Assembly (NCBI GenBank): GCA_000092065.1
Contig: CP000584.1
Direction: 5' to 3' (one strand)
DNA length: 64,000 bases
Origin: Ostreococcus lucimarinus
Lineage: Eukaryota
The notes under the pieces were generated by a model. That model made no database searches and had not been told where the DNA came from. It saw only the letters and a list, made by a program, of their open reading frames with translations. Made by a program: the position numbers and the translations under genes. Below are positions 24,259 through 28,515 of the stretch, in pieces (the stretch's first letter is position 1; each line of letters opens with the position of its first letter).

Positions 24259-25635
24259 ATGAATCCATTCCACGAAGACGCGTCGACGTTCGCGAGCGCG
24301 AGCTCGACCGCGAGCGTGGGCGCGAGTGATAACAGAGTGGACGTGCACGCGCTCGCGCACGATCTCGCGCGGGACGCGAACGTCGAGGATGGTCGGGTTT
24401 GGGGTCCACGCGGGGAACGGGACGACGGCGGACGGTTCGACGGCGGCGCGGAAGGAGGCGCGTCGTCGTACGATGATCGCGCCCAACACGAAAACGTTGA
24501 AGAACGGGACGTCGGTGATGCGCGCGCGCGTAAGCCGCGGGAGGTGAGCGCGGATGAGCGGATTAATGCGACGGCGACGGCGGTGATCAAGGCGGGGTCG
24601 AGCGGGCACTCGGTCGAAGCGTTCAACGGAAGCTCGGACGATATGGCGTTTAGCGATCGGCTCGCGGTGGCGACGGCGAAGATATCCACGCTAGCGGCGC
24701 AGCTGAAGGAGAAGACGGCGGCGGCGCGAGATACGCGCGCGAAGGAGAAGGCTCTAGGTGGTAAGGAGTTGTTGCGTCGGTTGCAAGAGACGGCGTCGAG
24801 TCAGAGCGCGCAGCGCGCGCCGGGTCTCGTTTCGTTGCAGTCCATGCGCAGAGGAGAAGGCGCGGCGGCACCAACTGTGGACGAAAGCGGAAAGGTCGTG
24901 AAGGGGATCGGGTACAAATTGAGCGCGGCGACGCGCCGCACGTCTCAGCGGTTGTTGCAAAGTTTCGGCACCGCGGAGAAGATGCGAGACGACGAGTTCA
25001 AGACTTTGTGGAACAGCGTGCAACAGCAGGAGTCCATCTTGAAGGAAATCGCGCAAGTGAGCACCGCGTATAAACATGCACAACGCGCGGTGTTCGATAT
25101 GAGCAAGCGACTGGCCACACTTATCCGGAATTTGGTCGAAACCGGGGACAAGAATAACGTTTGGGACGGCGCGCCGACGGTGGCGAGAGAAGCCGCGTTG
25201 CGAGAGGCGTGCAAGATGGTGGATGTCGCCGACGCTCTCGTCGCGCGATGCACGCCTCTCACCGAGGAAGTGTTCGATTGGAACATTGTCGAACCCGCGG
25301 CGCACCGCTCGAAAGAGCTCCCGGCGTACAAGGCGTGCGTAGCGAAACGCGCGGCTTACATGCAAGACATGGACGCCTTCGACCGCCAGCTCGGCGCGTT
25401 ACAGAAGCGCTCGCCCAAGAACGCCGACGAATACGCCGTCAAAGAAGAACAAGCGCGCCGCGCCAAAGAGCGCTTCCAGGATTTCAGCTCGAAGCTCGTC
25501 GAAGAGCTTCAAATCGTCGACGGCACGCGATACGAGATGGCGTACTCGATCGCCCGCGGGTTCGCCAACGTCCAATGCTTCAATCTCGAGCGCCAACTCG
25601 ACGTCGCTCGAACGCTCCGCGGTGGTGGTCAGTAG
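24259..25635 (+). CDS. Hypothetical protein with C-terminal BAR-like coiled helical domain
   Basis: ATG (MNPFHEDAS) at 24259; the upstream part of the track ORF is GC junk. The C-terminal ~250 aa are an amphipathic helical region. The BAR assignment is weak. Confidence 0.35.
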   Translation: MNPFHEDASTFASASSTASVGASDNRVDVHALAHDLARDANVEDGRVWGPRGERDDGGRFDGGAEGGASSYDDRAQHENVEERDVGDARARKPREVSADERINATATAVIKAGSSGHSVEAFNGSSDDMAFSDRLAVATAKISTLAAQLKEKTAAARDTRAKEKALGGKELLRRLQETASSQSAQRAPGLVSLQSMRRGEGAAAPTVDESGKVVKGIGYKLSAATRRTSQRLLQSFGTAEKMRDDEFKTLWNSVQQQESILKEIAQVSTAYKHAQRAVFDMSKRLATLIRNLVETGDKNNVWDGAPTVAREAALREACKMVDVADALVARCTPLTEEVFDWNIVEPAAHRSKELPAYKACVAKRAAYMQDMDAFDRQLGALQKRSPKNADEYAVKEEQARRAKERFQDFSSKLVEELQIVDGTRYEMAYSIARGFANVQCFNLERQLDVARTLRGGGQ

Positions 25636-25704
25636 CAACAACTCGATGCGACTCTAGCGCGCGTGTATAAGCTCCCACTTCAATCAATTACAAACATCGT
25701 CGCC

Positions 25705-26073
25705 TCACTCCGTCGCGTCCGATCCCGCGCCTTTCCGCTTCAGCCCAAACTTTTCCACCAGCTCGAACGCCTTATTCAGCACCTCCGTCTCCGCCGCGTT
25801 GAGTTCGTGAATCTCATCCACGACCTTATTCATCGCTCGATCGCGCGCGCGAGGGTCCAGCACGTCGTCCTCGTCGCTCGGGAACCCAGCCTCGGCGAAC
25901 TCGAGCATCGCCGCGCTCGGCTCTGCCCCCGCCTCGTTCGCCGCGTCGGCGCCGTCCGCGTCGCTCGCGCGACGCGTGATGGCGACGCGCGCGCGCGCGC
26001 GTTCGACGCGCTTCGTCGCGCGCGCGTGCGGACGCGCGATGGGGGCGAGCGGGGCGAGCGCGCGGGCGAACAT
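25705..26073 (-). CDS. Small hypothetical protein with organellar-presequence-like N-terminus
   Basis: 122 aa with an Arg/Ala-rich N-terminus, then an acidic helical C-terminus 'AMNKVVDEIHELNAAETEVLNKAFELVEKFGLK'. Confidence 0.35.
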   Translation of the reverse strand: MFARALAPLAPIARPHARATKRVERARARVAITRRASDADGADAANEAGAEPSAAMLEFAEAGFPSDEDDVLDPRARDRAMNKVVDEIHELNAAETEVLNKAFELVEKFGLKRKGAGSDATE

Positions 26074-26189
26074 CGCGTGTCGAAGTGACGAGTGACGTCG
26101 GTCCGTCGGTGGGTCGAGAAGTCAAATTCTAAGTGCTATGCGTCGTGACGTGTCTTCGTATCGCGTCGCGCGTCGGTGAGGCGCATCGC

Positions 26190-26635
26190 TCATCGCAGGC
26201 ACGATGAGAATCGGTGCTGGCCCACGTACCCGCCCTGCATCGCGCGCCGGACGTTCATCGCGAAATTCTGAGGCGTGCGCGCCAAATCCTCCGCCGCCTC
26301 CTTGTTCAGAGGATCGTCCGGATTCGGCTCGCTGAACAGCAGAGACAACCCGAAGATGACGCTCGAGATCGACAACACCGGTTTCCAATCCTCTCTCAAA
26401 ATGTTCAAGCACACGTTCCCGTCCAAGTCAATGTTCGGGTGATACACCTTGCGCTCGCATCGCACCTTCGGCGGTTCGTGCGGATACATCGTCGGCACCG
26501 CGAACGAAAACTCAAACGTCCCACCGCGATAGTACCCCTCATCGGGTTTAATCGCGATGACAAAGTTCAACAAATCATCCTTCCCATTCGGGAACGCTAT
26601 CGACATCGTCCGCGGAAGCGCGAGCTCCGATATGT
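26190..26635 (-). CDS. UBC12: NEDD8-conjugating enzyme UBC12/RCE1, exon 3 (UBC core)
   Basis: '[24 protein letters not shown]' vs Arabidopsis RCE1 '[24 protein letters not shown]'. Active site '[32 protein letters not shown]'. Exon begins AC|ATA... after CAG acceptor 26636-26638. Confidence 0.9.
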
Positions 26636-26727
26636 CTGCGTTCGTTTCGTTCGCGCGCGCGCGTCAGTCGTCTCGCCGTCGTCCCGCGTCCTCGCGCTTC
26701 CCCCGTTCGCGTCGCCGTCTCGCGCAC
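26636..26727 (-). other. UBC12 intron 2 (92 nt, phase 1): GTGCGCG...GACGACTGACG...ACGCAG
   Basis: Donor (minus strand) at 26727-26722. Branch motif is the reverse complement of 'cgtcagtcg' at 26662-26670. Confidence 0.7.
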
Positions 26728-26815
26728 CTTTCGCCACGCGAACCTCCCCGCTGCTCTGTCTCGACGTCGTGCCTCCGTTCGCCTCGCGTTCGGCCGCCTC
26801 CTTCTCTTGTTTCGC
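26728..26815 (-). CDS. UBC12: UBC12 exon 2 (AKQEKEAAEREANGGTTSRQSSGEVRVAK + first nt of Asp codon)
   Basis: Encodes 'EANGGTTSRQSSGEVRVAK|DISELALP', which matches RCE1 'ATRGGASVKKQSAGELRLHKDISELNLP'. Bounded by acceptor CAG (reverse complement of 26816-26818) and donor GTGCGC. Confidence 0.7.
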
Positions 26816-26966
26816 CTGTCGTCGTCGTCGCGCGCGCGTCGCGTCAGTCCTTCGTCGCATCCTTCGTCGCATCCTTCGTCGCGCGCGTCGCCGCGCGGTC
26901 GTTCGTCGCGCGCGTCGGCGTCGCGGTCGCGCGTCGCGCGTCGTCGTCCTCGCGTCGCGCGCGCAC
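26816..26966 (-). other. UBC12 intron 1 (151 nt, phase 0): GTGCGCGCG...GAAGGACTGACGCG...GACAG
   Basis: Contains the two in-frame stops that break the naive ORF. ACTGAC is the reverse complement of 'gtcagt' at 26824-26829. Confidence 0.65.
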
Positions 26967-26990
26967 CTTGACGGAGAACAGCTTGATCAT
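26967..26990 (-). CDS. UBC12: UBC12 exon 1 (24-nt micro-exon: MIKLFSVK)
   Basis: 'MIKLFSVK' matches the conserved UBC12 N-terminus (human MIKLFSLK, Arabidopsis MIGLFKVK) and is followed directly by GTGCGC. It lies ~70 bp from the divergent DXR start codon. Confidence 0.7.
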
Positions 26991-27060
26991 CGCGCCCTCG
27001 TCGCGGCGTCGTGTGTCGCGCGCGACGATTCGGCGCGTCGTCGCGGATGGATAGAGCGCG

Positions 27061-28515
27061 ATGCGACGGCGCGACACACGACGACGCGCGATGGCGATGG
27101 CGATGACGCGCGCGATGATGACGACGGCGACGACGGCGACGACGAAAGCGACGGCGCGGGACGCGCGACGCGAGACGCGCGCGCGACGCGCGATCGCGAC
27201 GAGGGCGAGCAACAACGAAAACCGCTACGGCGCGTGCTGGCCGGGACGCGCGGAGGTGCCGGCGAACGTCGCGGCGCTCGGGAACGGAAACGTGAAGAAG
27301 ATATCGCTGCTCGGAAGCACGGGGTCGATCGGGACGCAGACGCTGGACATTTGCGAGGAACATCCGGATAAGTTTGAGGTCGTGGCGCTGAGCGCGGGGC
27401 GAAACGTGACGCTGGTGGCGGAGCAGTGCGCGAAGTTCTCGCCGAAGTTGGTGAGCGTGCAGAACGGAGAGGACGTGGCGAAACTGAGGGATGCGTTGCA
27501 AAAACTCGGATGCGCGATGCCGGAGATTATGTATGGGGAGGATGGGATGGTTGAGGTGGCGAGACACGCCGACTGCGATTCGGTGGTGACGGGCATCGTC
27601 GGATGCGCGGGATTGCCGCCGACGGTGGCGGCGATCGAGGCGGGAAAGAATATTTGCTTGGCGAATAAGGAGACCCTCATCGCCGGTGGCCCCGCGATCG
27701 TGCCGTTGGCGGTGAAGCATGGGGTGAAAATTTTGCCCGCGGATTCCGAGCACAGCGCCTTGTTCCAGTGCATTCAAGGCATGCCGGAGGGCGCGCTGAG
27801 ACGCATCATTCTCACCGCCTCTGGCGGCGCTTTCCGCGATATGGACCTCGCCACCATGCGTGAACTCGCGGTGTCCGATCCCGCGGCGTTGCACAAGAAG
27901 GCGACGACGCACCCGAACTGGGACATGGGCGCGAAGATTACGTGCGACAGCGCGACGCTCATGAACAAGGCGCTCGAAGTCATCGAGGCGCACTACCTCT
28001 ACGGCACCTCTTACGACAACATTGACGTGATCGTGCACCCGCAATCGATCGTGCACTCCATGGTTGAGACCTCGGATAGCTCCGTTTTGGCGCAATTGGG
28101 CTGGCCTGACATGCGTTTGCCTATTCTTTACACCATGTCTTGGCCCAACCGCGTCGAGTGCTCCGAAGTCACGTGGCCGCGACTCGACTTTGTCAAGATG
28201 GGCGACCTCACCTTCCGCGCGCCCGATTTCGAAAAGTACCCGTCTCTCACCATGGGCTACGCCGCCGGTCGCGCCGGTGGCACCATGACGGGCGTTTTCT
28301 CCGCCGCCAACGAGCAAGCGGTCGCCATGTTCTTGGACAAAAAGATGGGCTACTTCGACATTTACAAAGTCATCGAGTTGGCCATGGAGGCGCACAAGAA
28401 CGAGCTCGTGCTCGATCCGTCCCTGGACGACATCGTGCACTACGATTTGTGGGCGCGCGATCACGTCAAGCAAACCGTGGAATCTGGCGTTTTGACCGGC
28501 GCCCTGCCTCGTTAA
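27061..28515 (+). CDS. DXR: 1-Deoxy-D-xylulose-5-phosphate reductoisomerase (DXR/IspC), plastid MEP pathway, with presequence
   Basis: '[18 protein letters not shown]' (NADPH-binding), '[11 protein letters not shown]', '[10 protein letters not shown]', '[12 protein letters not shown]'. N-terminal ~75 aa Arg/Ala/Thr/Met-rich presequence; the true start could be the internal ATG near 27091. Confidence 0.92.

What the first reader, a model, noticed from the sequence alone, without database searches (positions are those of the whole stretch)
26190..26990. UBC12/RCE1 is a three-exon gene with a 24-nt first exon 70 bp from the divergent DXR gene
The ORF track shows only the UBC core, starting at an internal Met (MSIAFPNG) and lacking the N-terminal docking peptide. 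The sequence supports MIKLFSVK (26967-26990), then AKQEKEAAEREANGGTTSRQSSGEVRVAK (26728-26815), then [16 protein letters not shown]... (from 26635). Spliced together this aligns residue-for-residue with Arabidopsis RCE1 ([53 protein letters not shown]). Both introns remove in-frame stops and carry the GTGCGC/ACTGAC signature. The micro-exon lies ~70 bp from the DXR start codon on the opposite strand. The core promoter region is therefore extremely compact.
Basis: partly seen in the sequence, partly recalled or inferred. Interest (0 to 1): 0.5.

Follow-up and report, generated by a model that had tools for sequence, protein, structure and literature searches.

The report
Already-annotated three-exon NEDD8 E2 gene

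Summary
On the minus strand, a 24-nt exon (26990-26967, MIKLFSVK), an 88-nt exon (26815-26728) and a 446-nt exon (26635-26190) splice into a 185-aa protein. The product aligns end to end with human UBC12 (E 1.7e-66) and has the same MIKLFS start. It is 185/185 identical to XP_001417542.1, a "predicted protein" of Ostreococcus lucimarinus CCE9901. The O. tauri model XP_022838801.1 uses the homologous splice sites.

Four Ostreococcus lineages keep exon sizes of 24/88/446 while intron lengths vary. Changes in exon 1 among three of those lineages are all synonymous. One Micromonas-like relative carries the gene without introns and reads straight across both predicted junctions. Both introns carry GTGCGCG donors and GACTGACG branch motifs, which match the published O. 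lucimarinus consensus.

There are two weak points:
- **The 70-bp spacing:** it assumes the longest DXR ORF. The public DXR model starts at 27118, which gives 127 bp.
- **No direct cDNA:** I found no transcript from this species that spans the junctions.

Verdict: a real feature, correctly interpreted, already known, and of low interest.

The parts
26967..26990 (-). Exon 1, a 24-nt micro-exon in phase 0 that encodes MIKLFSVK, the N-terminal docking peptide of UBC12
   Evidence: It is the only M-I-x-L-F match in six frames of the window. It is conserved as a 24-nt exon followed by GTGCG or GTACG in O. tauri, L012/L013, L014 and L022. Differences among three Ostreococcus lineages are all synonymous.
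26816..26966 (-). Intron 1, 151 nt, with donor GTGCGCG, branch motif GACTGACG at 26849-26842 (putative branch A at 26844, 28 nt before the exon) and acceptor CAG
   Evidence: It contains an in-frame TGA. It is built largely of GC-rich tandem repeats. Its length varies among relatives (151/114/94/103 nt) and it is only 52-63% identical to them, against 75-92% for exon 1.
26728..26815 (-). Exon 2, 88 nt, encoding residues 9-37 (AKQEKEAAEREANGGTTSRQSSGEVRVAK) plus the first base of Asp38. It forms the linker and the start of helix 1 of the UBC core
   Evidence: the Pfam UQ_con match starts at residue 34. It is 88 nt in all four Ostreococcus lineages.
26636..26727 (-). Intron 2, 92 nt, phase 1, with donor GTGCGCG, branch motif GACTGACG at 26669-26662 (putative branch A at 26664) and acceptor CAG
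   Evidence: It is absent from relatives L005, L022 and L018/L020, where exon 2 and exon 3 are fused exactly at this point.
26190..26635 (-). Exon 3, 446 nt including the stop at 26192-26190. It encodes [10 protein letters not shown] plus the 138-aa core, with the HPN motif and the catalytic Cys113 codon TGC at 26411-26409
   Evidence: H103, P104, N105 and C113 are invariant in the alignment.
26991..27060 (.). Spacer between the UBC12 ATG and the first ATG of the divergent DXR ORF, 70 bp. It extends to 27117 (127 bp) if DXR starts where the public model does
   Evidence: A 15-bp indel (70 vs 85 bp) is seen among metagenome contigs of the same species.
27061..28515 (+). Divergent neighbour: 1-deoxy-D-xylulose-5-phosphate reductoisomerase (DXR), longest ORF 484 aa. 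The public model of 465 aa starts at 27118
   Evidence: PF02670, PF08436, PF13288; XP_001417285.1. The head-to-head arrangement is conserved in O. tauri, L012/L013, L014 and L022.

Best explanation
The region is the Ostreococcus lucimarinus orthologue of UBC12/UBE2M/RCE1, the E2 enzyme that conjugates NEDD8/RUB1. It is transcribed from the minus strand as three exons of 24, 88 and 446 nt. Two canonical short spliceosomal introns of 151 and 92 nt are removed, giving a 185-aa protein.

Shown here: the exon-intron structure, its conservation across relatives, and orthology by sequence. Inferred from human, yeast and Arabidopsis work: the enzyme takes NEDD8/RUB1 from the E1 onto Cys113 and passes it to cullins. 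The exon-1 peptide (Met1-Ile2-Lys3-Leu4-Phe5) would be N-terminally acetylated and would dock into DCN1 and the E1. That role explains why eight codons are kept as a separate micro-exon.

The gene lies head to head with DXR. The two start codons are 70-127 bp apart, which is normal for this very compact genome.
For: **Reading frame and orthology**
- Splicing restores one open frame of 185 codons.
- The product scores 226.5 bits (E 1.7e-66) against human UBC12 over its full length. The next E2 subfamilies score 105 bits or less.
- Pfam UQ_con matches residues 34-169, so the 138-aa ORF alone lacks the first 14 residues of the core domain.
- M1, I2, L4, F5, K8, the HPN motif and C113 are invariant across algae, plants and human.

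**Match to public models**
- The product is 185/185 identical to XP_001417542.1 / ABO95835.1.
- The O. tauri model XP_022838801.1 spans 738 bp, which equals 24+114+88+66+446 with homologous splice sites. It comes from an annotation informed by RNA-seq junctions and curated by hand.

**Comparative evidence**
- Exon sizes are invariant and intron sizes vary in four lineages.
- Exon-1 substitutions among three Ostreococcus lineages are all synonymous.
- Relatives lacking intron 2 (L005, L022) or both introns (L018/L020) read contiguously across the predicted junctions.
- MMETSP transcript ORFs from related algae begin MIKLFSVK-(D/E)KQ.

**Splice signals**
- The donor and branch motifs match the consensus of EST-confirmed O. 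lucimarinus introns outside chromosome 2: GTGCGTG donors, ACTGAC in 87% and GACTGACG in 66.5% (PMC2483917).

**Role of the N-terminal peptide**
- In human UBC12, Met1, Ile2 and Leu4 are the hotspots for DCN1 binding (PMC5658359).
Against: I could not retrieve any cDNA, EST or RNA-seq read from this species that spans either junction. Two searches for the spliced junctions in metagenome contigs returned nothing. The loose splice-signal pattern is not enriched in the window. NEDD8 specificity, N-terminal acetylation and DCN1 docking are all inferred from orthology and were not tested in any prasinophyte. I did not check whether this genome encodes DCN1.
Confidence: 0.94

Rival explanations
1. 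The gene is a single exon. Translation starts at the internal Met at 26606 and produces only the 138-aa UBC core. The upstream matches are coincidental.
For: This is the only uninterrupted ORF. Prokaryote-style gene callers report it in more than a thousand metagenome assemblies.
Against: It would remove the first 14 residues of the Pfam UQ_con domain and the whole UBC12-specific extension. The upstream exons are conserved in size, phase and protein sequence across four lineages, while the introns diverge. Intronless relatives encode the full N-terminus contiguously. The public eukaryotic models of two species use the three-exon form.
Confidence: 0.02
2. The main product starts at the in-frame ATG inside intron 1 (26872) and reads MRRRMRRRTDATRARRRRQ-AKQEKE.... 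Intron 1 would then be 5' leader or retained sequence, only intron 2 would be spliced, and the protein would lack the docking peptide.
For: The frame is open from 26872 into exon 2 (ORF 26597-26872). In-frame ATGs within intron 1 also occur in L012, L005 and L022, and they produce the chimeric database ORFs P0121, P0002 and P0040.
Against: The peptide encoded there is not conserved. O. tauri has no in-frame ATG in intron 1 (reading). The micro-exon is under purifying selection and matches the invariant M-I-x-L-F of all UBC12 orthologues. Open frames are expected by chance in GC-rich sequence with few stop codons.
Confidence: 0.03
3. On the spacing claim only: DXR translation starts at a downstream Met (27091-27118), not at 27061. 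The ATG-to-ATG distance would then be 100-127 bp. The two genes may have overlapping divergent 5' ends and not a 70-bp shared core promoter.
For: The public model XP_001417285.1 is 465 aa and starts at 27118. Transit-peptide lengths in relatives (33-43 residues before NNENRYG) fit a start at Met11-Met20 better than at Met1. The corresponding spacing in relatives is 183-306 bp. Overlapping UTRs and transcription units are reported for O. tauri and O. lucimarinus.
Against: Nothing excludes use of the first ATG at 27061. Contigs that start at 27102/27103 look like assembly breaks and not like transcript ends.
Confidence: 0.6

Closest known systems
XP_001417542.1 / ABO95835.1 / UniProt A4RW91, 'predicted protein' / 'UBC core domain-containing protein', Ostreococcus lucimarinus CCE9901
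   Same: It is 185/185 identical to the product spliced from the window, so it is the same gene and the same exon-intron model.
   Different: Nothing differs in sequence. The public record carries no specific functional name, although JGI labels the fragments 'ubiquitin-conjugating enzyme E2 M'.
Ostreococcus tauri XP_022838801.1 / CEF97636.1 (chromosome 4, CAID01000004.2)
   Same: It is 185 aa and 167/185 identical, with the same exon sizes (24/88/446) and the same intron positions and phases. It is also divergent from DXR.
   Different: Its introns are shorter (114 and 66 nt). Its donors are GTGCGAA and GTGCGTG. The spacing to the annotated DXR start is 210 bp.
Human UBE2M/UBC12 (PDB 4p5o, 2nvu, 1y8x)
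   Same: The alignment is full length (1-185 vs 1-183) at 57% identity. MIKLFS, the HPN motif and the catalytic Cys are identical.
   Different: The linker between the docking peptide and the core differs in sequence and is 2 residues longer. Biochemistry was not tested in the alga.
Arabidopsis RCE1-type plant RUB1-conjugating enzymes, represented here by the Brassicaceae homologue P0113 and the Selaginella 'RUB1-conjugating enzyme 2' P0044
   Same: They are 63-64% identical and collinear from Met1, with an M-I-(G/K)-L-F-(K/S)-V-K start. RCE1 was itself defined by homology to human UBC12 and is needed for cullin neddylation (PMC3968751).
   Different: I did not retrieve the Arabidopsis sequence itself.

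Membership tests
UBC12/UBE2M/RCE1 (NEDD8/RUB1-conjugating E2) | UBC core domain with the HPN motif and a catalytic cysteine | tested here: met
   Pfam UQ_con scores E 1.2e-38 over residues 34-169, covering profile positions 1-139 of 140. H103, P104, N105 and C113 are invariant in the alignment.
UBC12/UBE2M/RCE1 (NEDD8/RUB1-conjugating E2) | An N-terminal extension ahead of the core that begins Met-Ile-x-Leu-Phe (the docking peptide) | tested here: met
   MIKLFSVK is encoded by exon 1. M1, I2, L4, F5 and K8 are invariant across 14 sequences from algae, plants and human.
UBC12/UBE2M/RCE1 (NEDD8/RUB1-conjugating E2) | Closer to UBC12 than to any other E2 subfamily, and collinear over the full length | tested here: met
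   The score is 226.5 bits against UBC12 (1-185 vs 1-183). It is 105 bits against UBE2F and 104 bits or less against UBE2D/Ubc4.
UBC12/UBE2M/RCE1 (NEDD8/RUB1-conjugating E2) | Forms a thioester with NEDD8/RUB1, not ubiquitin, and neddylates cullins | not testable with these tools
   This needs biochemistry or genetics. Here it is inferred from orthology only.
UBC12/UBE2M/RCE1 (NEDD8/RUB1-conjugating E2) | An N-alpha-acetylated Met1 that docks into DCN1 | not tested
   The residues that contact DCN1 in human UBC12 (Met1, Ile2, Leu4; PMC5658359) are present. I did not look for a DCN1 orthologue in this genome, and acetylation cannot be tested here.
O. lucimarinus spliceosomal introns outside chromosome 2 (Irimia & Roy 2008) | Strong atypical 5' splice site with consensus GTGCGTG | tested here: met
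   Both introns begin GTGCGCG, matching 6 of 7 consensus positions.
O. lucimarinus spliceosomal introns outside chromosome 2 (Irimia & Roy 2008) | An ACTGAC / GACTGACG branch motif near the 3' end, followed by an AG acceptor | tested here: met
   Both introns carry GACTGACG with the putative branch A 28 nt before the exon, and both end in CAG. GACTGACG is enriched in the window, 12 against 4.2 expected.
O. lucimarinus spliceosomal introns outside chromosome 2 (Irimia & Roy 2008) | Removal confirmed in transcripts | tested here: inconclusive
   Neither spliced junction was found in metagenome contigs. The only support is indirect: intronless or intron-poor orthologues, transcript ORFs of relatives, and the RNA-seq-informed O. 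tauri model.

The most novel reading that the evidence does not exclude
The UBC12-DXR head-to-head pair is conserved from Ostreococcus to a Micromonas-like lineage. In O. lucimarinus it might be served by a shared bidirectional control region of 70-127 bp or less, or by divergent transcripts that overlap. That spacer carries a 15-bp indel in natural populations. Separately, the in-frame ATG inside intron 1 (26872) could, through intron retention, yield a UBC12 isoform without the docking peptide. Neither idea is excluded by my evidence, and neither is supported by transcript data.
Probability: 0.15. Interest if true: 0.25.

Novelty: already known. Interest (0 to 1): 0.08.

Why it matters
It matters little scientifically. 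The gene, its three-exon structure and its orthology are already in public records.

The practical lesson concerns annotation. A raw ORF track, or a prokaryote-style gene caller run on picoeukaryote contigs, truncates this enzyme to its 138-aa core or fuses intron sequence onto it. In both cases it loses the eight-residue peptide that, in other organisms, docks the E2 to DCN1 and the E1. Many metagenome entries labelled 'ubiquitin-conjugating enzyme E2 M' carry this error.

Tried and rejected
1. I searched metagenome contigs for the spliced exon1|exon2 and exon2|exon3 junctions, hoping to find metatranscriptome cDNA. Both searches returned 0 hits and both scans are now used.
2. I looked up P0143 by exact sequence to fetch the NCBI O. 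lucimarinus locus with its annotated coordinates. It is not on record in that index. Identity was established from the cluster listing instead.
3. I tested whether the GTGCG...ACTGAC...AG signature alone marks introns in the window. It is not enriched over a first-order Markov model, 16 observed against 16.6 expected, so I did not use it as primary evidence.
4. I tried to fix the 5' end of DXR from contigs that carry the 470-aa version (L015-L017). Two of them start at 27102/27103, beside a GC-rich repeat with an indel polymorphism. These are most likely assembly breaks and say nothing about the transcription start.
5. I scanned 25600-27400 against Rfam for an intronic snoRNA or other RNA. Only two chance-level hits appeared, far below the gathering scores.
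6. I considered skipping of exon 2 (exon 1 joined directly to exon 3). I rejected it because it breaks the frame: exon 1 ends in phase 0 and exon 3 starts in phase 1.
7. I did not run structure prediction or fold search, because the full-length sequence match to solved UBC12 structures is already decisive.

Full report
**What is in the sequence**

The minus strand of 26190-26990 reads as the first-stage reader described.
- Exon 1 is ATGATCAAGCTGTTCTCCGTCAAG at 26990-26967. It encodes MIKLFSVK and is followed directly by GTGCGCG.
- Intron 1 is 151 nt and ends ...GGACTGACG-N24-CAG at 26816.
- Exon 2 is 88 nt (26815-26728). It encodes AKQEKEAAEREANGGTTSRQSSGEVRVAK plus the first base of an Asp codon.
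- Intron 2 is 92 nt, starts GTGCGCG and ends ...CGACTGACG-N24-CAG at 26636.
- Exon 3 (26635-26190) completes the Asp codon and continues [17 protein letters not shown]... to the stop.

The ORF list shows only the 138-aa piece starting at Met 26606. The spliced CDS is 558 nt, giving 185 aa and not 184.

Intron 1 holds an in-frame TGA. Intron 2 has no stop in the exon-2 frame, but its 92 nt would shift the frame if retained. Joining exon 1 directly to exon 3 breaks the frame, so exon 2 is required.

**Is this more than chance?**

The pattern M-I-x-L-F occurs once in all six frames of the 64-kb window, at 26990 on the minus strand.

The splice signature alone is weak evidence. GTGCG is abundant in this 59% GC sequence. 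The loose pattern GTGCG...ACTGAC...AG appears 16 times against 16.6 expected. Only the extended GACTGACG motif is enriched, 12 against 4.2 +/- 2.4. The case rests on homology and comparison, with the motifs as supporting detail.

**What the gene is**

The spliced protein matches human UBC12 over residues 1-185 against 1-183 (226.5 bits, E 1.7e-66). The first six residues are identical. Other E2 subfamilies score 105 bits or less.

Pfam UQ_con covers residues 34-169. The 138-aa ORF, which starts at residue 48, would therefore lack the start of the core domain as well as the UBC12-specific extension.

In an alignment with green-algal transcript ORFs, plant RCE1-type proteins and human UBE2M, the residues M1, I2, L4, F5, K8, HPN103-105 and Cys113 are invariant.

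**It is already annotated**

The 90%-identity cluster that contains the 138-aa ORF also contains two 185-aa public proteins:
- XP_001417542.1 / ABO95835.1, 'predicted protein [Ostreococcus lucimarinus CCE9901]'
- XP_022838801.1 / CEF97636.1, 'Ubiquitin-conjugating enzyme, active site [Ostreococcus tauri]'

The first is 185/185 identical to my spliced product.

The O. tauri gene spans 738 bp, which equals 24+114+88+66+446 with homologous splice sites. That annotation was built with RNA-seq junctions and manual curation, and 89% of its introns were validated (PMC4378021).

**Comparative test of the junctions**

I fetched orthologous loci from metagenome assemblies and from the O. tauri genomes.
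- In four Ostreococcus lineages the exons are always 24, 88 and 446 nt and the product is always 185 aa. These are the window, O. tauri (L010/L011/L009), L012/L013 and L014. Intron 1 is 151/114/94/103 nt and intron 2 is 92/66/105/101 nt.
- Exon identity to the window is 74-92%, against 47-64% for the introns. The exon-1 differences among the window, O. tauri and L012 are all synonymous: ATC/ATT, AAG/AAA, CTG/CTC/TTG, TCC/TCG.
- L005 lacks intron 2.
- L022, a 68% GC Micromonas-like contig, has the micro-exon and intron 1 but no intron 2.
- L018/L020 have no introns at all. Their genomic ORF reads MIKLFSAK-DKQEKE...RLAK-DISEL straight across both predicted junction positions.
- MMETSP transcript ORFs of related algae also begin MIKLFSVK-(D/E)KQ.

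These results stand in for the missing cDNA. Two searches for the spliced junctions in metagenome contigs found nothing.

**Splice signals in context**

Irimia and Roy (PMC2483917) examined EST-confirmed O. lucimarinus introns outside chromosome 2. They report ACTGAC in 87% of them, GACTGACG in 66.5%, and a strong atypical donor consensus GTGCGTG. Both introns here have GTGCGCG donors and GACTGACG motifs 28 nt from the acceptor.

**How it most likely works**

The exon-intron structure and the orthology are shown here. The mechanism is inferred from named families.
- The enzyme receives NEDD8/RUB1 from the E1 on Cys113 and, together with RBX1, transfers it to cullins. Arabidopsis RCE1 was defined by homology to UBC12 and is required for cullin neddylation (PMC3968751).
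- In human UBC12 the N-terminal 12 residues bind a groove in DCN1. Met1, Ile2 and Leu4 are the hotspots, and loss of Leu4 abolishes binding (PMC5658359). The interaction depends on N-terminal acetylation (Scott et al. 2011, as cited).
- All of these residues are encoded by the 24-nt exon, which explains the purifying selection on it.

I did not test acetylation, DCN1 docking or NEDD8 specificity for this alga, and I did not check that it has a DCN1 gene.

**The DXR spacing**

The neighbour on the plus strand is DXR (three Pfam domains). The 70 bp is the gap between 26990 and the first ATG of the longest ORF (27061).

The first 20 codons hold six ATGs. Every corresponding protein version exists in the databases, and the public model XP_001417285.1 (465 aa) starts at 27118, which gives 127 bp. 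Transit-peptide lengths in relatives fit a start at Met11-Met20 better than at Met1. The equivalent spacing in relatives is 210, 183 and 306 bp.

Metagenome contigs of the same species carry a 15-bp indel in the spacer, giving 70 or 85 bp.

Intergenic regions in this genus average under 200 bp, and overlapping divergent transcripts are reported (PMC2367439; PMC4378021). The arrangement is compact but typical, and no transcription start site data support a '70-bp core promoter'.

**Verdict**

Three details need correcting: the product is 185 aa; intron 2 causes a frameshift when retained and does not remove an in-frame stop; and the DXR start, and so the spacing, is uncertain. The gene model is already public in two Ostreococcus species. 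Novelty is 'already known' and interest is low.

Noticed in passing
window 26991-27060; L001-L004 around 2530-2617: The UBC12-DXR spacer is polymorphic in natural populations. Contigs L001 and L002 carry a 15-bp insertion (85 bp instead of 70), and there are also single-base differences just upstream of the UBC12 ATG.
   Followed up: partly
window 26825-26963 (intron 1): Intron 1 is largely GC-rich tandem repeats. There is a perfect 12-nt unit x2.9 at 26848-26882 (GCGACGAAGGAT on the coding strand) and 27-28-nt units x3 at 26875-26961. This probably explains why it is the longest intron 1 among the relatives (151 vs 94-114 nt).
   Followed up: partly
L005 1-300; L022 2376-2720; L018/L020 gene start: Introns are present or absent in a graded series across Mamiellophyceae-like relatives. 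Ostreococcus has both introns, L005 and L022 have only intron 1, and L018/L020 have none. Intron 1, after Lys8 in phase 0, is shared with a 68% GC Micromonas-like lineage. L005 also has a long (GT)n microsatellite inside intron 1.
   Followed up: partly
database proteins P0001-P0005, P0013, P0019, P0040, P0121, P0139: Prokaryote-style gene calls on picoeukaryote metagenome contigs either truncate this gene to 138 aa (listed in 1285 blocks of the collection) or fuse translated intron sequence to exon 2 or exon 3. Examples start MCVRIQ-AKQ..., MNRRLTDDAQ-EKQ... and MDPTPLRAP.... Many are labelled 'ubiquitin-conjugating enzyme E2 M'.
   Followed up: yes
window 26872 (minus strand); L012, L005, L022 intron 1: In-frame ATGs inside intron 1 that read openly into exon 2 occur in the window and in three other lineages, but not in O. 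tauri. This is probably chance in GC-rich sequence with few stop codons. An intron-retention isoform lacking the docking peptide was not excluded.
   Followed up: no
window 27061-27120: The DXR N-terminus has six in-frame ATGs in its first 20 codons ([20 protein letters not shown]). Public and metagenome records use at least six different starts, giving 484, 474, 472, 470, 466 and 465 aa.
   Followed up: partly
window 25705-26073 (minus strand): A 122-aa ORF with no Pfam hit lies 116 bp downstream of the UBC12 stop. An ORF of 116-158 aa holds the same position in every relative examined, followed by a BAR-domain gene and NPL4.
   Followed up: no
database protein P0061: A plant UBC12 homologue is named 'CAAX prenyl protease [Ranunculus cassubicifolius]'. 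This presumably comes from the gene symbol RCE1, which is shared with the unrelated Ras-converting CAAX endopeptidase.
   Followed up: no
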